Assembly (NCBI GenBank): GCA_009914755.4
Contig: CP068257.2
Location: 31,232,001 to 31,296,000, forward strand
Source: the human T2T-CHM13v2.0 reference genome, Homo sapiens
DNA length: 64,000 nucleotides
Direction of reading: 5' to 3'
The notes beneath the pieces were generated by a model, which saw only the letters and a program-made list of their open reading frames with translations, did no database searches and was not told the DNA's origin. A program made the translations under genes and the position numbers. How positions within the stretch are numbered: position 1 is the stretch's first letter; each line of letters opens with the position of its first letter. Positions 1 through 57,600 of this stretch are shown here, piece after piece.

Positions 1-54
1 TAATTTTTAAATGCCAGTTTCATTTCATCATTTACTCTTGTTTTATGGAAATTA

Positions 55-690
<636 letters not shown>

Positions 691-775
691 ACAAATAATA
701 AATAAATAAATAAATAAATAAATAAAATAATACAACAAAATAAAAATAAAAAAGTGAAAAAGGAATAAAGAAATA
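691..775. repeat. (AAAT)n / A-rich simple repeat derived from the Alu tail
   Basis: aaaacaaataataaataaataaataaataaataaaataatacaac... Confidence 0.85.
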
Positions 776-1298
776 GGAAGAAAGGTATAGAAAGAAGAAG
801 GAAGCATAGAAACAAGCTAGCTATTGTTACAGCCGTGTTTCTTGAGTGTTGGAGTAGGGAATGATACCGTGATGAAAGCTTTCTGATGCATGGCGACTCC
901 TGGGAGCCTCACAGTCCCTTCCTTCCTTCCACTGTTCTCCCAGTTTCACCTCCCTTCCTTCCCTCCAATATTTTCTTTTCCTTTCAACTTTGCTTCTCCC
1001 ATTCTCCAATTTCCCTGCTATTTGCTACAATGTGCCTGTTGCTCAGGATACAGTGGTGACAATATGGACAGGAGGGCACACACCTGCAGCTGATCCTCTT
1101 CTTGGGGAAGACAGAGACAAAGCACGTAATCACACAAACCAGTGAAATGATAAATTCTGATAAATGCTGTGACAAAGATGACAAGGAGAGAGTCTAACAG
1201 GGGGACTAATTTAGACTGATGGTCAGCAAAGACCTCTCTGAAGAAATAAAATATTAAAATGAGACTCGAAGGATTAGTAGAAGTTATCCAGAACCAAG

Positions 1299-5689: not shown

Positions 5690-5815
5690 TTCACCTCTAC
5701 CTCCATCAGTCTATCATACCTATCTATTATCTATCTATCCATCTATCATACCTGTCTCTATGATCTCTATCATTGCTATCTCTATCATATCTATCTCTAT
5801 AATCTCTATCATTGC

Positions 5816-5857
<42 letters not shown>
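5690..5857. repeat. (TATC)n / (GATA)n-type degenerate tetranucleotide block
   Basis: ctatcatacctatctattatctatctatccatctatc ... a perfect (ATCT)10 run at 5818-5857. Confidence 0.85.
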
Positions 5858-5858
<1 letters not shown>

Positions 5859-6236: not shown

Positions 6237-6450
6237 TATATATCAATCTCTATCATCTATCTCTATTTATCATGCTTATCTGTCTACCTATCTACCATAT
6301 CTATGATATCTATCATTATCTATCTATCTGTAGCTACTATCTATTGATCTATTTATCTATATCTACTATCTATCTATCATTTATGTATCTCTGCCATCTC
6401 TACCTATCTGTCTATCATCTATCTGTTTCTATTATCTACTATCTACCTAT
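6237..6450. repeat. (TATC)n-type degenerate tetranucleotide block, continuing the block upstream of the LTR
   Basis: tatatatcaatctctatcatctatctctatttatc ... ctatctgtctatcatctatctg. Confidence 0.8.
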
Positions 6451-7074
6451 CTAACACAGAAACATAGATTTGGTCATGTACTACTTATTACTTCTATGCC
6501 TTTAATGACTCTAACCATTATTGACTCTGCGTTGACAACAAAAAGTCTGAACTTTTAACAAGGATTGAAAGTCTTTCACAATCTGTCTTCACCTTGGCTT
6601 TTTAGCATCTTCTTTCCCTCTCCACTCCCCACAACAGGTGACAGATACTGTGCTAGGTACAGTATGTCCTGTACTTCCTCCCTCTCCACTAACCACCCTC
6701 ATCACCCCTCTCACTGCCTCCGATTTCCTTCCCCCCAGGGCCTGGTCTCAGAGCCACACTAGGCCATGGGACTCTTGTGTCCCTGCCCCAACTCTGCTCT
6801 TCCCCCTCTGGCCGCCATCCTTGCGGTCTCCTCTCGAGACTTCTTTTCTCTGTGAACCCCTGTCTCGCTGCACTAATGGCTTCTTCTTCAGAGCTCCCGC
6901 CTGTCGAGAGCCAAACATGGCTGCCTGTCTGCTGGTCTGAGGATTCCTTTCTCACTGTACCCCAGGGCCCAGGAGCATTTCCAGTAGAACAATGTGTGTG
7001 TGGGGGGCAGGGGTAGGTCGGGGGATGAGTGTAGATTGCCTTGCCTGCCTGCAGGGAAGCCAAGGCCTCAGGCT

Positions 7075-28789: not shown

Positions 28790-29184
28790 TTTCTTTCCTT
28801 CTTTCTTCTTTTTTCTTTCTCTTTCCTTTCTTCTTTTCTTTCTTTCTTTCTTTCTTTCTCTCTTTCTTTCTTTCTTGCTCCCTGTCTCTCTCTCTCTCCC
28901 TTCCTTCCTTCCTAACTTCCTTTCTTCCCTCCTTCCTTCTTTCTTCCTTTTTCTTTCTTCTTTCTTTCCTTTCTTTTCCTCTTTCTTTCTTTTCTTTTTT
29001 CTTTCTCCTTTCTTTCTTTCTTTTTTCTTTCTTTCTTTCTTACTTTCTCTTCCTTCCTTCTCTCTTCCTTCCTTTTCTTCCTTCTTTATTTCTCTCTGTC
29101 TCTCTCTTTCTGTCTCTCTCTGTCTCTCTCCCTCTCTTTCTGTCTCCCCCTTTTTTTCTTCCTTTTCTCTTTTCTTCCTTTCAT
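28790..29184. repeat. Long (TTTC)n/(CTTT)n/(TC)n polypyrimidine-polypurine microsatellite, about 400 bp
   Basis: ttctttccttctttcttcttttttctttctctttcctttcttcttttctttctttctttctttctttctctc ... tctctctgtctctctccctctctttctgtctc. The run is continuous with the poly(T) end of the minus-strand Alu at 29185. Confidence 0.95.
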
Positions 29185-43935: not shown

Positions 43936-44157
43936 GCCCTCATTGGTAGCATTTGCAAATTTCTATGGTATAAATATTCCCTACTATGGCTGATTTCAAT
44001 CTACCAACATAATTTCACTGAACACGTAGTTGGAAAGAGATGTACACAGTCAGCTCTTGTAAGCCAGTCATAGCTGGCTCCAGCACACCACGTGGCTATC
44101 TCAATCTTCAGAGTCTGTTCTGAGGGTCTGTTTCCTGGGGCTACTCCTGGAACCCAT

Positions 44158-45000
44158 TACTGTATCAGTCAGGGACCTAGCAACAAATAGATGGCCCACT
44201 AATAGGGAGTAATTTGAGAAAATTTTAACAAAGTAATTATTTACAAATAGTATTTTATAATTATTTAATTATCAGTTAATTTAATAATTATTCATTATAA
44301 TTAATAATATATACAATGTATAATATATAAATTATATAATATATTTATTATAATTAATAATTATAGAAATATATTTTTATATTATATTGTATATATAGAT
44401 GTATAAAATATTTAATATATAAATTGCATATTATATAAAATTTAAATGAGATTTATAAGATATATAAATTAATTAATTATATTTATAATTTATAAGTATG
44501 CATTTATAAATTTATATACATTATTTATAATGTATATACTTAATTATTATCTTATTAATTATATAATTATATTATTAGTTGCCTAATTACACTTATATAA
44601 TTAATTTATATAGTTATATTTATATAATTATAACAAATATAACTATATAACTTATAATTATATTTTATCTATATATGGAAATATTTTATATATTATAACA
44701 TATAAATAGTATAATTATAATGAAAATATATGAAAATATAAATAATAAATAATTATTCATTTAATAACTATTTAATTATTATTTACGAGTTAAGAGTGGG
44801 TAGGGTCTAGAGAAACCACAAAGGACAGTGAAGGTTTCTTGGGCTAGTAAGAGCAGGGCTCTGTTACAGTCCCTGGGCCTGAAGTGCAGAGGGAAAGAGC
44901 AGTTACTGGAACATGGAGACAGAGAGAAAGCCACGTGACAAGTCCTGGGTGCTTTGGTCAAGGAATGAAGCCAGCCTTATATCAATTCCTTAGGGAGGGA
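44158..45000 (-). mobile_element. MLT1-like LTR remnant containing a 590-bp A/T-only expansion
   Basis: Starts ctgtatcagtcagggacctagcaacaaatagatggcccac (the LTR end motif) and resumes gagaaaccacaa ... ggaatgaagccagccttatatcaattccttaggg. In between, 44200-44790 is about 99% A/T (taattat, tataatt, atatata words). Confidence 0.5.
44200..44790. repeat. Extended A/T-only low-complexity tract (TA-rich, many short palindromic words)
   Basis: About 590 bp with almost no G/C: attatttaattatcagttaatttaataattattcattataattaataatatatacaatgtataatatataaattatataatatatttattataattaataattatag ... Confidence 0.95.
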
Positions 45001-53485: not shown

Positions 53486-54282
53486 TGGAGGGGGGAAAGA
53501 AAGAGGGATTAGATAGACAGTAGGTAGGTTCCTGCTCTTCTTCCCCATGCTTTCTTCCTGCCATGGCTGGGGACTAGCGAGGAGAAGGAAGTGTGACTGT
53601 CCCACTGCAGCATTCCCCCTGCTCAGAGCCCAGGAGGAAGGGAACTCACTTGCAGCTTTGCATAAAGAGAGTCTGCCAGCTGCAAGCCAAGTTCTGGAAC
53701 ACAGCTTCCGGGCAGCGGCCTCTGGAATGCTTTCTGGCTCTCTCTGCAGACTCAGCCTCCTGCAGCTCCTTGGCTAACCTGGCAGGAACCTCAGCCCAGG
53801 CCAAGGAGGCTGCAGCCAACCCGAGCCCCCTGATGGGCTTCCACCCCGACCTCCACAGCTGCTGGTGAGATTTGGCTCAGCCCTTAGTCATGACCCTTCC
53901 ATAGACTGACTTCTTTAAAATTCACGAAGCCTTTTCTTTACAATTATGATTATGCCTGTCCTGTGTGCAGGCACCGAAGGAGGAGGAGATACTAGGAATG
54001 AAAGGTTAAGGGACAGAAAAGGAACATCCAGTCCTCCTGTAAAAGCTATCTCTCTGTGTTGTCCTTGGACTTGAGTCTTCCTGTGGCCTGTGACTAATGC
54101 TCACATCCCTGAAATTTCCCAGGACAGAAAAGACCCAATCACACAACCCCAGAAGAAAAACACCAACAAAACCAATTTTCTCTACAAACGTGCATGTGAT
54201 AGCTCCGACCAGTTCTCTAAGCCATTCCCATCAGCCCAGGGTTCACAATCCAGCCCTCGGCTGGATTTCAAAGGTGGGAACA

Positions 54283-54585
54283 GGCTGGGTTCATGTCTGT
54301 AATCCCAACACTTTGGGAAGCCAAGGTGGAAGGATCACTTGAGGCCAGGAGTTCCAGACCAGCTTGGGCAACATAGCGAGACCCTGTTTCTAAAACAAAA
54401 ACAAACCCAAAAAACAAAAAACAAAAATTAGGCAAGCTTGGTGTTACACGTCTATAGTCTCAACTACTTGCTTGAGGATGGGAGGATCACTGGAGCCCAG
54501 GAGTTGAAGGCTGCTGTGAGCTATGATGGTGCCACTCCAGCCTAGAGCCTAGGTGACAGAGAAAGACCCTGTCAAAAAAAAAAAG
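54283..54585 (+). mobile_element. Alu SINE (AluJ-like, diverged)
   Basis: ggctgggttcatgtctgtaatcccaacactttgggaagccaaggtggaaggatcacttgaggccaggagttccagaccagcttgggcaacatagcgagaccctgtttc ... ggtgccactccagcctagagcctaggtgacagagaaagaccctgtc(A)n. Confidence 0.85.
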
Positions 54586-55331
54586 GGGGGGGGGTGGGGG
54601 GAGCAGACAGACCACACTCAATTCATCAAAAGGAGAATTGCTACTTTTCATTTGTTTAGCTACAGTAGAAAAAGTCTAATCACATAACTTTCCCTGGGGC
54701 TGCGGAAGATTTCTCCTTTGAGGCAGTTCCTCACAGTAACACTGTAATCGAAACAAAGCCTGCTCTTCTCATGCGGAGCATATTTTCTCCTGGAGAACCA
54801 CAACTGGGTTTGCAAGGGTAGAGCCAGGCTCCTTCCCATAACATGCTTGCCTTGCCTGCCTGGGGTTGAACTTTTTTTTTTTTTCCACAAGAGAGCCATA
54901 AACACATAGATACCAAAGAGTTAATTTGCGTTTTTTAAACCTTCTTCCCAAAGCCTGCTCTCATTCCTGCATAAAATCCCCATGTCCAGACATCAAATCA
55001 GTAAGCCCTGTTGCCTGTCAGAGAATACAATGTCAGGCCATTAGTATGTTAATAAGTCCGGAGGGCGACAGGTGGCCTACTAGACAGCTCAATTAAGCTG
55101 CTCATTAAACACACGCTAACGAACAGCCGAGGCAGGGCCTGAACAGCACCATTCTGTAATGACATGATGTCAGAGTGAACAAATGAGGAAAAATAACAAA
55201 AACATTACAGCAGGGACAGACGCCACTAATAAGGACCCCTCGCACTACATCAGCCCGCAAATCAATGAGTCACCGGGATCAAAAAACTCGACCCAACATT
55301 CTCAGGAGACTGAGTGCAGCAAGATTTTTTT

Positions 55332-55355
55332 GGTCACTACTAAAAAAAAAAAAAA
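55332..55355. repeat. Poly(A) run, about 24 nt, inside a CpG-retaining unique block
   Basis: ggtcactactaaaaaaaaaaaaaaaaaaaaaagcccaaaccc. Confidence 0.9.
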
Positions 55356-56130
55356 AAAAAAAAGCCCAAACCCAACCCTAAAATTATTGCAAAATATCGC
55401 AAATTAACTGCTTTAAAAAAATGAAAAAGAGCAAAGTTTATTTGACACGGAACTAATCACGAAGTCTGAGAAATCTGTATTGCTGGGTTTAAATGAAAAT
55501 CATTATTTAATGGGATCATCATTTACATTTGATTGGCATCCTCTTTTTATAAGCCCACAGGTTTGAACCATTTCTCTGCTCTGGTACCCAGGCAGTAGAA
55601 GGGCACAGTGGAACGGAAGGAGCGTGTAGCCAAATTTCTTAGGTGAAGATTCTGCTTGTCATTATTTTAAGAGAAGGGACTTCCAGCAGCTGCTAGAGGT
55701 TTCTCTCATTTTCAAGTAAGGCGCTTCCTGAATAATAAAAAATCAAACCTCCGCCAGGCATGGCTCTGACATTGGAGACATATATTGCTAAACTAATAGG
55801 CTGGCTGGCCATTAGGAGATCACGACCTCGGCTCTTATCTTTTGTCAAGTTAACAGCTGACACCTCCTCTGCATGTAGACCTTCTTCTAGGCCTAAGGTA
55901 GATGCTGCTCCTCTAGCTAAGCTGGTGAGCTGAAGGCAGGCAGGAAACCAGTGCAGTTGGGCTTAAGGAGCTGATGCAGAGTCCCTCGGAAGCATGGTTC
56001 TTTCCATATTGGTTGAACTTTCTCTGCACAAATCTATGGTCCAAATCTATGAGTGAGGCAGATAAGGCTCTCACCTGAGTGACCCTGAGCAGGTCCCCTT
56101 AATCCCTGGCTCTGTTTCCTTATTCATATT

Positions 56131-56427
56131 TATTTTATTTTTAGAGACAGAGTCTCTCTCTGTTGCCCAGGCAGGAGTGCTGTGGCGTGATCATGGCTCA
56201 CTGTAACTTCAAACTCCTGGGCTCATGTGATCCTTTGGCCTCAGCCACTGGTGTAGCTGGGACCACAGGCATGTGCTGCCATGGCTGGTTAATTTTCAGA
56301 ATTTTTTTTGTAGAGATGGGGTCTCGCTATGTTGCCCAGGCTGGTCTTGAACTTTTGGGCTCATGTGATCCTCCTGCCTCTGCCTCCCACAGTGTTGGGA
56401 TTACAGGCGTGAGCCACTGCACTCAGC
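56131..56427 (-). mobile_element. Alu SINE (reverse complement, AluJ-like)
   Basis: ttttagagacagagtctctctctgttgcccaggcaggagtgctgtggcgtgatcatggctcactgtaacttcaaactcctgggctcatgtgatcc ... gtgttgggattacaggcgtgagccactgcactcagc. Confidence 0.9.
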
Positions 56428-57387
56428 TCTTTATTTATAAAATGTGATTGGACTGGGATTTCGCCTTGCCTTTTCCATTCTAGAAAGGACTTCAGCACAA
56501 AATAAGAGTAAAATCCTCATGGAATTTGCCATCTGGTTGAAAAGAAAAACTAGTGGCTGAAAATAGTCACGAAGAATTCAAGAACACAGTATAGTGTGTT
56601 ACCTAGAATTATAAGAAGAATTTAAAAAAGGGAGACATTGGGGATTTGTAAGGGCTCCAGGCCAATTCCCTGAAATCAGCTGGGCCTGAGTGGGTGGAGC
56701 AGACGCAGGGAGAGGGCGGAGCTTCTGCCGACCTTGCAGAGTGAGTAGGATGGAAGGGCAGGAGGAGGTCCAAGCGACAAAGGCAGGCATGAGCATGGGG
56801 CCTGCATGCGTCTGGGTGTATGTGGACAGTGGGATGGGAGCTACCTGTGATCAGACCTGCTACATGGAGGCAAGCTGGGGGGTGCAAAGCCAGAGGAGAC
56901 AGATGTGCAGGGGCAGAGGCAAGAGACATTTGGTGAGTGCAGAGGCCACAGCAATCTGGCTTTTTATCTCAGTGACTCTAAGGTCTGTCTTCAGGCTGAT
57001 GGATGTGACAGCATGCCATCACTCGACAGATATTTACTGAGGTTCCCTCTTTGCTTGAGGAACTGTGGGGAATACAAAAATCAGAATATTCTGGACCTGC
57101 CCTCAGGGAGTTTATAATCGAGTCATTCCTTCAACTAATATTTCTTCAAGGACTTCTCTTTGCCAGGCTCTGCTAAGAATAATGGCAAATAATGGTTTCT
57201 TGGTCCCAGCCCTCGTGAGTTTATGGTCAAAGAGAAGAGACAGGCATATTATTTGACTAACTCCATTTCAAGTCAGACTGTGATGAATGTTGTGGCCAAG
57301 GTGGGAACAGAGACTTGTAGGAACACAGATAAGGGTGTGCTTAAGTCTGTCTGTGAGAATCACAGAAACTTCCAGGCACCTTCAAGG

Positions 57388-57600
57388 GCTCTAGAGCAGC
57401 ACTGTCCAGTAGAACTTGCTGGAATGACAGGAATGTTCTTTACCTGCATTGTCCAGTGTGGTAGCCACATATGGCTGTTGAGCACTTGAGATGTGGCTAG
57501 AGTGACTGAGAAGCTGAATTCCTCATTTTAATCCATTGGAATTTAAATAGTCACATGTGATTAGTGGCCACCATATTGGATAGTGCAGCTGTAAAATGGT
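57388..57600. mobile_element. Short non-autonomous DNA-transposon-like element (MER-type MITE) with imperfect terminal inverted repeats and a palindromic core
   Basis: Ends cagcactgtccagtagaac ... ttggatagtgcagctg are imperfect inverted repeats. The core gtggtagccacatatggctgttgagcacttgagatgtggctagagt is the hallmark palindromic gccacat(a/g)tggct motif of a known human MER family. I cannot name the exact family. Confidence 0.45.

What the first reader, a model, noticed from the sequence alone, without database searches (positions are those of the whole stretch)
54950..55950. CpG-retaining, AT-rich unique block dense in TAAT/TGAT homeobox-like motifs, interrupted by an A24 run: candidate conserved enhancer or young retro-inserted RNA copy
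This 1-kb stretch is non-repetitive and AT-rich, yet keeps about 18 CpGs (cgacagg, acgctaacgaacagccgagg, gacgcc, ctcgcac, cccgcaa, accggga, ctcgaccc, atcgcaa, acacggaac, cacgaag, aacggaagg, gagcgtg, ggcgctt, ccgccagg, cacgacctcgg). That is roughly twice what neutral methylated human DNA of this base composition retains. It is packed with motifs typical of developmental enhancers (gctcattaaacacacgctaacgaacagc; ctgtaatgacatgatgtcagagtgaacaaatgag; taatgggatcatcatttacatttgattggcatcc; ctaatcacgaag; gccattaggagatcacgacc; ttgtcaagttaacagctgacacc). Two explanations fit. It may be a deeply conserved noncoding element in a gene desert, or a hypomethylated regulatory element. Alternatively, the A24 run at 55332-55355 ends a CpG-rich segment of about 300-400 bp (54953-55355), which would fit a recent retrocopy of a small RNA or a 3' UTR fragment.
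Basis: partly seen in the sequence, partly recalled or inferred. Interest (0 to 1): 0.55.

Follow-up and report, generated by a model that had tools for sequence, protein, structure and literature searches.

The report
Mammal-conserved noncoding element, likely enhancer
This 1-kb stretch is a cluster of non-coding DNA blocks that several distantly related mammals have kept almost unchanged, which makes it most likely an ordinary distal gene-regulatory element (enhancer) and not a recently inserted RNA copy.

Summary
The CpG excess is real: 19 CpGs in 1001 bp, observed/expected 0.42 against 0.18 for the window. Some details are wrong. The run is A22 at 55342-55363. GC (42.6%) equals the window mean. 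TAAT is only modestly enriched and TGAT is not.

I recovered orthologous contigs from Old World-monkey-like primates and from at least 5 non-primate lineages. They show three conserved blocks:
- a core at 54952-55327 (about 95% identity, 97% over 54972-55226, no indels over 54962-55260 against L004, 378/441 columns of 54898-55338 invariant)
- 55491-55549 (86%)
- 55630-55873 (84%, peak 95%)

Neutral-like flanks are about 64-65% identical.

Nothing indicates coding sequence: no protein or Pfam homologues, no codon periodicity, frame-breaking indels and an unconserved stop. Nothing indicates structured RNA either: no Rfam hit, z-scores +0.85 and -0.88, no covariation.

In the core, 5 of 11 CpGs are invariant in all lineages, so selection explains the retention there. 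Right-half CpGs are mostly TG/CA in other mammals and are decaying.

The recent-retrocopy reading is refuted. The segment and the A tract (A11-A23) occur in distant mammals, conservation runs through 54953, and there is no target-site duplication.

Best reading: an ordinary conserved non-coding element, probably a developmental enhancer. Enhancer activity is inferred, not shown.

The parts
54620..54890 (.). Weakly conserved left shoulder. It includes a T-rich tract (T13 at 54872-54884) whose position is shared with other mammals, but not its length.
   Evidence: Lineage-weighted identity is 65% over 3 non-primate lineages. Bins 54650-54799 are about 80% identical to L004. The T tract is T4 in L004, TTTTCTTTCC in L007 and T8CT4 in L010.
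54893..54940 (.). Small conserved block just left of the core.
   Evidence: About 90% lineage-weighted identity. The CpG at 54929 is kept in L004, L007 and L010.
54952..55327 (.). Core conserved non-coding element.
   Evidence: 94.6% lineage-weighted identity, rising to 97% over 54972-55226. 290/299 identical to L004 over 54962-55260, with no indel. Identical runs are 148 bp with L010, 79 bp with L007, 60 bp with L004 and 56 bp in all four lineages. Four TGACA/TGTCA sites (55016, 55031, 55160, 55168) are invariant. Five of 11 CpGs are invariant in all lineages.
55342..55363 (+). A22 homopolymer. It is a length-variable poly(dA:dT) tract at the right edge of the core, followed by a C-rich tract at 55364-55378.
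   Evidence: One search gives the coordinates. The tract lies at the same position in other species: at least 21-23 in monkeys (contig ends), A17 in L007, A12 in L010, A11 in L005 and at least 16 in L013. In L004 it is replaced by T6...C15 at the contig end.
55491..55549 (.). Second conserved block (taatgggatcatcatttacatttgattggcatcc region).
   Evidence: 86% lineage-weighted identity, 93% over 55495-55542. It is 100% identical between the window and the monkey in the 55500-55549 bin.
55630..55873 (.). Third conserved block. It overlaps an 89-codon open frame on the minus strand (55696-55962) that is not a gene.
   Evidence: 84% lineage-weighted identity over 4 lineages, with a peak of 95% at 55696-55732. 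Substitutions fall 38/52/46 on codon positions 1/2/3, and there are 1-, 4-, 5- and 7-nt indels. The stop TAG reads as CAG in three lineages. No Pfam hit.

Best explanation
The interval is a cluster of conserved non-coding blocks held by purifying selection across placental-level divergences. The blocks are a core of about 430 bp at 54893-55327 and two weaker blocks at 55491-55549 and 55630-55873.

It most likely works as a distal cis-regulatory module, that is, a developmental enhancer. On this reading, tightly packed and overlapping transcription-factor sites are read as DNA in particular embryonic tissues. These include invariant TGACA/TGTCA half-sites of the TALE-homeodomain type, TAAT-type homeodomain cores and a CAGGTG E-box. 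The bound module then acts on a distant promoter.

The CpG excess in the core is a by-product of this constraint: CpGs embedded in constrained sites cannot decay. In the right half the excess is a mix of surviving ancestral CpGs and primate-lineage gains.

The A22 run is a slippage-prone poly(dA:dT) tract at the edge of the core. Its position is old, but its length is not conserved.

Shown here: conservation, the non-coding nature of the sequence, absence of an RNA-structure signal, and conservation of the motifs. Inferred: factor binding, enhancer activity, tissue and target gene.
For: Orthologues were recovered from unrelated sources.
- L004 came from a JGI metagenome contig found by a 22-mer scan.
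- L001-L003 and L005-L013 are Logan/ENA contigs reached through spurious ORF calls.
- They represent at least 5 non-primate lineages that are 71-78% identical to one another in the flank.

Identity to the window by segment:
- 54620-54890: 65%
- 54898-55338: 93.5%, with 378/441 columns invariant
- 54972-55226: 97%
- 55450-55549: 83%
- 55650-55860: 84.5%
- 55861-56129: 64%

Further flank at 56427-57590 aligns at only 66-72%. Between primates, 55425-55950 diverges 3.25% against 6.0% in the flank. For non-CpG sites the figures are 2.2% against 5.0%, P about 0.03-0.04.

Evidence that it is non-coding:
- No Pfam hit.
- No protein homologue for any frame of either half beyond the orthologous spurious ORFs.
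- No third-position excess, and frame-breaking indels.

Evidence that it is not a structured RNA:
- No Rfam hit.
- Folding z-scores of +0.85 and -0.88.
- Alifold covariation term of +2.81, with 1 compensatory pair out of 104.

Motifs and CpGs:
- TGACA/TGTCA occurs 9 times against 1.9 expected. All 4 core sites and 55443 are invariant across lineages.
- Five of 11 core CpGs are invariant and 4 more are kept in some lineages.

Published descriptions of CNEs match the anatomy. They are reported to cluster near developmental regulators, to be enriched in the TAAT homeodomain core and to contain runs of identical nucleotides (PMC5728398). Meis TGACAG/A sites occur in CNE enhancers validated by mutagenesis (PMC3261376).
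Against: - No functional data of any kind could be consulted: no chromatin marks, reporter assays or target gene.
- The TGACA enrichment was tested post hoc.
- The canonical Pbx-Hox TGATNNAT motif and TAATTA are absent.
- The species behind the contigs are unknown, so the depth of conservation is calibrated only by flank identity. It cannot be said to reach beyond placental-like distances.
- The core is covered by only 3 non-primate lineages.
- Conservation alone does not distinguish an enhancer from a silencer, an insulator, a chromatin-architecture element or an unstructured lncRNA exon.
Confidence: 0.62

Rival explanations
1. Recent (primate-age) retrocopy of a small RNA or 3' UTR fragment on the + strand, spanning 54953-55341, with the A run as its tail.
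For: An A22 run directly follows a CpG-richer segment.
Against: - The same segment is present at 91-97% identity in three mutually divergent non-primate lineages.
- Conservation continues across 54953: the 54900-54949 bin is 94% identical to L004 and the 54950-54999 bin is 90%.
- No direct repeat pairs the two junctions.
- No Rfam family matches.
- No AATAAA lies upstream of the run.
Confidence: 0.01
2. Ancient exapted retroposon. On this reading the core began as a retroposed RNA or SINE copy in an early mammalian ancestor, its poly(A) tail survives as the A tract, and the body was later recruited as a regulatory element, as with LF-SINE or AmnSINE1-derived CNEs. This concerns origin only and is compatible with the best explanation.
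For: The A tract sits exactly at the 3' edge of the most conserved block. It is present in primates and in at least 3 non-primate contigs at A11-A23.
Against: - There is no target-site duplication.
- The left edge is gradual rather than sharp.
- There is no second copy in 64 kb.
- The 22-mer from the core occurs once in 241 million metagenome records and not at all in the genome or viral collections.
- There is no tRNA, 7SL or 5S-like match.
- L004 lacks the A tract.
- A neutral tail would not stay a pure homopolymer in several lineages for this long.
Confidence: 0.07
3. Conserved exon or 3' end of a long non-coding RNA or mRNA on the minus strand. On this reading the conservation reflects RNA-level function.
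For: The minus strand carries AATAAA at 55442-55437 with a U-rich stretch downstream. It also has a cag|ctcacc acceptor-like site near 55930 and an 89-codon open frame.
Against: - The AATAAA is missing in all non-primate contigs because of a 3-bp gap.
- The open frame has no codon periodicity, has frame-breaking indels and has an unconserved stop.
- No structure signal or covariation was found in the core, the only part tested.
- No known RNA family matches.
- Conservation is strongest in the core, which has no transcript-like features.
Confidence: 0.1
4. Conserved non-coding element with a non-enhancer role, such as a silencer, an insulator or boundary element, or a nucleosome-positioning/architectural element. 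The flanking poly(dA:dT) tracts would be part of the design.
For: The conservation evidence is the same as for the best explanation. T-rich and A-rich tracts bracket the core at conserved positions. A partial CTCF-like/E-box core, GACAGGTGGCC, is invariant.
Against: - The CTCF match is partial, about 9 of 15 positions by eye.
- From established knowledge, most CNEs of this type that show any activity in reporter assays behave as tissue-specific enhancers.
- The homopolymer lengths are not conserved, and L004 lacks the A tract.
Confidence: 0.17
5. Hypomethylated island-like region. On this reading the CpGs survive because the region escapes germline methylation, not because of selection on the sequence.
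For: CpG o/e of 0.42 is the highest of any 1-kb stretch in the window.
Against: - It is far below CpG-island criteria: o/e 0.42 and GC 42.6%.
- Between primates, 6 of 20 CpG-context sites in 55425-55950 differ, against 2.2% of other sites. This is typical methylated-CpG decay and similar to the flank, at 4-5 of 10.
- Right-half CpGs are TG/CA in most other mammals.
- In the core, non-CpG bases are conserved just as strongly as the CpGs.
Confidence: 0.03

Closest known systems
Vertebrate/mammalian conserved non-coding elements (CNEs; phastCons-type elements, UCNE/CONDOR-type sets)
   Same: Identity is far above the neutral flanks: 94-97% against about 64%. The sequence is non-coding, has no RNA-family match, carries homeodomain-type TAAT cores and is bordered by homopolymer runs. 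The core is indel-free over 54962-55260 against L004. These are the features reviewed in PMC5728398.
   Different: Conservation beyond placental-like distances is not demonstrated. GC is not below the local mean. TAATTA itself is absent. Genomic clustering around a developmental gene could not be checked.
Ultraconserved elements (at least 200 bp, 100% identical in human, mouse and rat)
   Same: There are long perfectly identical runs: 148 bp with one non-primate lineage and 56 bp across all four lineages.
   Different: No run reaches 200 bp in the species available. The defining species (mouse, rat) could not be identified among the contigs.
Pbx-Hox/Meis-signature CNE enhancers (hindbrain and pharyngeal arch; PMC3261376, PMC4489388)
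   Same: There is a cluster of invariant TGACA/TGTCA (Meis/Prep/TGIF-type) half-sites inside a CNE, including an inverted pair, TGACATGATGTCA, at 55160-55172.
   Different: The defining TGATNNAT Pbx-Hox motif does not occur in the interval. Only 55016 (TGTCAG; CTGACA on the other strand) forms the full TGACAG/A motif. No expression data exist.
Processed pseudogenes and SINE/L1-mediated retrocopies
   Same: A pure poly(A) run lies at the 3' side of a unique segment.
   Different: There is no target-site duplication, no sharp 5' boundary and no source-RNA match. The segment and the A tract are both shared with distant mammals.

Membership tests
Conserved non-coding element (CNE) | Cross-species identity well above that of flanking, neutrally evolving DNA | tested here: met
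   54898-55338 is 93.5% identical and 54972-55226 is 97%, against 64-65% in 54620-54890 and 55861-56129, over 3-4 non-primate lineages. Flank alignments are 66-72%.
Conserved non-coding element (CNE) | Not protein-coding | tested here: met
   No Pfam hit. No protein homologues for six-frame segments of either half. The only relatives of the 89-codon frame are orthologous spurious ORFs with unconserved stops and frameshifts. Substitutions fall 38/52/46 by codon position.
Conserved non-coding element (CNE) | Not a known structural or small RNA gene | tested here: met
   No Rfam match at gathering score anywhere in the window. The only match at E<=1 is a chance 14-bit hit. Folding z-scores are +0.85 and -0.88. 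The covariation term is unfavourable.
Conserved non-coding element (CNE) | Lies in a cluster of CNEs around a developmental regulator gene (genomic regulatory block) | not testable with these tools
   The genomic address is unknown. The only hints are that three further unique blocks of the window are shared collinearly with L004 and that no Pfam-recognisable ORF of 88 aa or more occurs in 64 kb.
Ultraconserved element (Bejerano definition) | At least 200 bp with 100% identity between human, mouse and rat | tested here: inconclusive
   The longest identical runs are 148 bp (L010), 79 bp (L007) and 60 bp (L004). The contig species are unknown, so the definition cannot be applied strictly. None of the available species meets it.
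Developmental enhancer | Tissue-specific reporter activity, and accessible chromatin with H3K27ac/H3K4me1/p300 | not testable with these tools
   No epigenomic or VISTA data are available. A literal search of papers, and of one CNE paper's supplements, for core 16- to 22-mers found nothing.
Developmental enhancer | Clustered, evolutionarily conserved transcription-factor motifs | tested here: met
   TGACA/TGTCA occurs 9 times against 1.9 expected (post hoc). YTAATKR occurs 5 times against 1.5 (P=0.02). Core motif instances are invariant in all lineages.
Retrocopy / processed pseudogene | Target-site duplications flanking the body plus tail | tested here: not met
   No direct repeat of 9 nt or more pairs about 54940-54960 with about 55364-55380. 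An 11-mer GGTTGAACTTT (54864 and 56011) that suggested a minus-strand insertion lies in sequence whose left junction is continuous in other mammals.
Retrocopy / processed pseudogene | For a young copy: absence of the insert at the orthologous site of outgroup species | tested here: not met
   The body is present in L004, L007 and L010. The A tract is present in L005, L007, L010, L013 and the monkeys.
Retrocopy / processed pseudogene | End-to-end match to an expressed source RNA | not testable with these tools
   No transcriptome database was available. Rfam and protein searches were negative.
CpG island / hypomethylated region | CpG o/e of at least 0.6 and GC of at least 50% over at least 200 bp, with CpGs that do not decay | tested here: not met
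   o/e is 0.42 (0.49 in the left part) and GC is 42.6-46%. Thirty per cent of CpG-context sites differ between primates in the right half.

The most novel reading that the evidence does not exclude
The poly(dA:dT) tracts bracketing the core may be functional parts of the element rather than slippage debris. These are the T-rich tract at 54872-54884 and the A tract at 55342-55363, both positionally shared among mammals. They could act as nucleosome-excluding borders that keep a roughly 450-bp ultra-constrained factor platform exposed, in which case their lineage-specific lengths (A11 to A23) would tune its activity. Alternatively, the core plus A tract could be an unrecognised ancient retroposon family exapted as an enhancer.
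Probability: 0.08. Interest if true: 0.45.

Novelty: already known. Interest (0 to 1): 0.22.

Why it matters
The finding is an ordinary example of a well-known class. Strongly conserved non-coding elements are routinely listed by genome-wide conservation tracks, and many act as developmental enhancers. Its practical value is local. Variants inside 54952-55327 hit sequence that has tolerated almost no change across mammalian orders. That makes the element a reasonable candidate when interpreting non-coding variants or deletions near whichever regulator gene it serves.

There is also a methodological point. A CpG surplus in unique, non-island DNA can flag constraint, as in the core. It can equally arise from stochastic retention and lineage-specific gains, as in the right half. 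CpG counts alone should therefore not be read as evidence of conservation or of youth.

Tried and rejected
1. Minus-strand retro-insertion.
   - An exact 11-mer, GGTTGAACTTT, lies at 54864 (abutting the T13 run) and again at 56011. It looked like a target-site duplication around a 1.1-kb minus-strand retrocopy.
   - Rejected. Other mammals carry a T-rich tract (T4 to T8CT4) in continuous conserved sequence at the left junction. One exact 11-mer pair is about what chance gives in 1.5 kb.

2. A-run as a primate-specific expansion.
   - I inferred this from L004 alone.
   - Withdrawn after L005, L007, L010 and L013 showed A11-A17 at the same position.

3. Coding exon. The 89-codon minus-strand frame looked protein-like and had been called as a gene in several assemblies. 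Rejected.

4. NUMT or known repeat. These ideas rested on composition or memory. There was no Rfam or SINE-consensus hit.

5. Searches that found nothing:
   - Word-indexed protein searches with concatenated six-frame segments of both halves.
   - Exact look-up of 9 window ORFs.
   - Two genome-contig scans and two viral-contig scans.
   - Literal sequence searches in papers and in the supplements of PMC3261376.

6. Identifying the species of the contigs. This failed: there were no lineage-specific SINEs, tRNA-like elements or source names.

7. P0007, a 1288-aa bacterial repeat protein returned, is a chance match to a 23-residue stretch and was ignored.
Full report
**Setting.**
- The window is primate DNA: there are 26 Alu-consensus HSPs.
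- GC is 42% and CpG observed/expected is 0.18.
- The finding lies in a unique stretch between an Alu at about 54288-54585 and an inverted Alu at 56138-56417.

**Checking the observation.**
- The interval holds 19 CpGs in 1001 bp (o/e 0.42). The window median is 8 per kb, and this is the highest 1-kb value in the window.
- The left part, 54953-55341, has 10 CpGs (o/e 0.49). The right part, 55364-55950, has 9 (o/e 0.35).
- The homopolymer is A22 at 55342-55363, about 10 bp away from and 2 bp shorter than stated.
- The block is not AT-rich relative to the window (42.6% against 42.2% GC).
- TAAT/ATTA is modestly over-represented: 16 against 9.4 in dinucleotide shuffles (P=0.02), but 13% of other windows reach that count.
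- TGAT is not enriched, and TAATTA and TGATNNAT are absent.
- No other copy of the block exists in the 64 kb.

**Getting comparative data without a genome browser.** None of the tools holds vertebrate genomes, so I used two indirect routes.
- Route 1, spurious ORF calls.
  - Gene callers sometimes predict 'proteins' in non-coding DNA of public assemblies.
  - The 89-codon open frame on the minus strand (55696-55962) retrieved one such product. That product and its cluster mate led to three primate contigs, L001-L003.
  - A full HMMER scan of 1.84 billion representatives retrieved six more products at 57-78% identity.
  - Their contigs, L005-L013, were then fetched.
- Route 2, an exact 22-mer scan.
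  - A 22-mer from the core was scanned against JGI metagenome contigs.
  - It hit a single 16-kb contig of vertebrate-like DNA, L004 (CpG o/e 0.23).

**What the contigs represent.**
- L001-L003 differ from the window by 4-6%, so they are Old World-monkey-like.
- The others fall into at least five lineages: L004; L007=L008=L009; L010/L005/L013; L011=L012; and L006.
- These lineages are 71-78% identical to one another in the flank. They are 66-72% identical to the window in flanking DNA at 56427-57590.
- That level is what different placental orders show. The species themselves could not be identified.
- L004 is collinear with the window at three more unique blocks. This supports orthology rather than a dispersed repeat.

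**Conservation profile.** Lineage-weighted identity to the window:

| Segment | Identity | Note |
|---|---|---|
| 54620-54890 | 65% | left shoulder |
| 54893-54940 | about 90% | small block |
| 54952-55327 | 94.6% | core; 97% over 54972-55226 |
| 55364-55449 | 72% | |
| 55491-55549 | 86% | 93% over 55495-55542 |
| 55550-55649 | 73% | |
| 55630-55873 | 84% | 95% over 55696-55732 |
| 55861-56129 | 64% | right flank |

- In 54898-55338, 378 of 441 columns are invariant in the primate plus three non-primate lineages.
- 54962-55260 has no indel against L004 and is 290/299 identical to it.
- Identical runs reach 148 bp with L010 and 56 bp in all four lineages.
- Between primates, 55425-55950 diverges 3.25% against 6.0% for the flank. 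For non-CpG sites the figures are 2.2% against 5.0%, P about 0.03-0.04.
The strongest block starts about 60 bp left of the box.

**Coding sequence and RNA.**
- No frame of either half has a Pfam match or a protein homologue other than the orthologous spurious ORFs.
- In the 89-codon frame, substitutions fall 38/52/46 on codon positions 1, 2 and 3.
- Indels of 1, 4, 5 and 7 nt break the frame, and the stop TAG reads as CAG in three lineages.
- Rfam gives nothing at gathering score, and only a 14-bit chance hit at E<=1.
- The core folds no better than shuffled sequence on either strand: z is +0.85 and -0.88.
- A four-lineage alifold has an unfavourable covariation term, with one compensatory pair in 104.
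- The minus-strand AATAAA at 55442-55437 is missing in all non-primates. It does not mark a conserved transcript end.

**The CpGs.**
- In the core, 5 of 11 CpGs are CpG in every lineage (54929, 55059, 55114, 55120, 55221). Four more are kept in some lineages, and two look primate-specific.
- This is retention by purifying selection on the surrounding sequence.
- In the right half, most of the 9 CpGs are TG, CA or GG in other mammals.
  - Some sites show a TG/CA mixture (55614, 55623, 55829). That pattern marks an ancestral CpG which decayed independently elsewhere.
  - Others look like primate gains (55448, 55722, probably 55823).
- Between the window and the monkey, 6 of 20 CpG-context sites differ. 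That is ordinary methylated-CpG decay.
- The single explanation of 'CpG-retaining' therefore holds only for the core, and hypomethylation is not indicated.

**The A run and the retrocopy idea.**
- I first concluded from L004 that the run was primate-specific. The later contigs overturned this.
- An A tract sits at the same position in L007 (A17), L010 (A12), L005 (A11), L013 (at least 16) and the monkeys (at least 21-23). In each it is followed by a C-rich tract.
- L004 instead has T6...C15 at its contig end.
- The T13 run at 54872-54884 also has T-rich counterparts.
- These are old, length-unstable poly(dA:dT) tracts at the edges of the core. [quoted passage not shown]
- A recent retrocopy is excluded.
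  - The body is shared with distant mammals.
  - There is no boundary at 54953 (94% and 90% identity in the bins on either side).
  - There is no target-site duplication and no poly(A) signal.
- An ancient retroposon origin cannot be excluded, but nothing supports it beyond the tract itself.

**Mechanism.**
- The pattern is near-invariant primary sequence over hundreds of bases, an indel-free stretch, and no coding or RNA-structure signal. This is the signature of a DNA-level element packed with overlapping binding sites.
- The motif content points to homeodomain-class readers.
  - TGACA/TGTCA half-sites occur 9 times against 1.9 expected. This was a post hoc test.
  - All four core sites are invariant, including the inverted pair TGACATGATGTCA at 55160-55172.
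  - YTAATKR occurs 5 times against 1.5 expected.
- Meis-type TGACAG/A sites in CNEs have been shown by mutagenesis to be required for enhancer output (PMC3261376).
- I therefore rate 'distal developmental enhancer' as the most likely function, at about 0.6.
- About 0.17 goes to other DNA-level roles (silencer, insulator, architectural) and about 0.1 to an unstructured lncRNA exon.
- Binding, activity, tissue and target gene are all inferred.

**Verdict.**
- The element is an ordinary member of a very well-known class, of the kind that standard conservation tracks of the human genome already list.
- Interest is low to moderate and novelty is low.

Noticed in passing
window 16365-16539, 20572-21191 and 53885-54287: Three further unique blocks align to the metagenome-derived vertebrate contig L004 in collinear order, at 72%, about 66% (inverted) and 65% identity. 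About 39 kb of window corresponds to about 11 kb of L004. The window may therefore hold more conserved non-coding blocks, and possibly a small inversion between lineages.
   Followed up: partly
window 54861-54884 and 55351-55374: Inverted-repeat-like arms bracket the core: TGGGGTTGAAC+T13 and A13+GCCCAAACCCA, 24 nt and 88% complementary. More than half of each arm is homopolymer, and L010 shows a similar G-rich+T-run / A-run+C-rich arrangement. This is probably compositional, but it is an odd symmetry.
   Followed up: partly
window 54754-54766 and 54949-54961: An exact 13-mer direct repeat, CAAAGCCTGCTCT, occurs 195 bp apart. About 0.02 such pairs are expected by chance in 1.5 kb. In L004 only the left copy is recognisable (TAAAGCCTGCTCT); the right one reads CAATATCCTCTCT. 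It has no retroelement-like context.
   Followed up: partly
window 55696-55962 (minus strand); P0001-P0006, P0008-P0011: An open frame in conserved non-coding DNA has been called as a 'protein' of 80-272 aa in Logan/ENA assemblies of several mammals. It forms small clusters in the public protein collection and is a clear example of spurious ORFs there. These calls were nevertheless what made the comparative analysis possible.
   Followed up: yes
window 55437-55442 (minus strand AATAAA): A canonical poly(A) signal with a U-rich downstream stretch exists in the window and in the monkeys. It is created by 3 bases that all non-primate contigs lack. It could be a primate-specific cryptic polyadenylation site.
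   Followed up: partly
L004 (JGI metagenome contig Ga0065711_1041178, 16.4 kb): A contig filed as metagenomic is vertebrate nuclear DNA. It has CpG o/e 0.23, a (CA)n microsatellite and orthology to this primate locus, so it is host or contaminant sequence. Over the 13 kb read it contains no recognisable SINE, tRNA-like element or poly(A) run.
   Followed up: partly
window 44255-44630; 28790-29119; 5710-5858 and 6249-6453; 14216-14287: Low-complexity arrays lie elsewhere in the window: an AT-only block (GC 25% over 44001-45000), a roughly 330-bp (TTTC)n array, two (TCTA)n arrays and an (AATAA)n array.
   Followed up: no
window 1-1000: This is the second-highest CpG count in the window: 18 CpGs, o/e 0.36. 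It overlaps Alu-like sequence (tandem-repeat consensus AGCCAGATGCGGTGGCTCACACCTGTA at 60-113), so it is probably young Alu CpGs rather than constraint.
   Followed up: no
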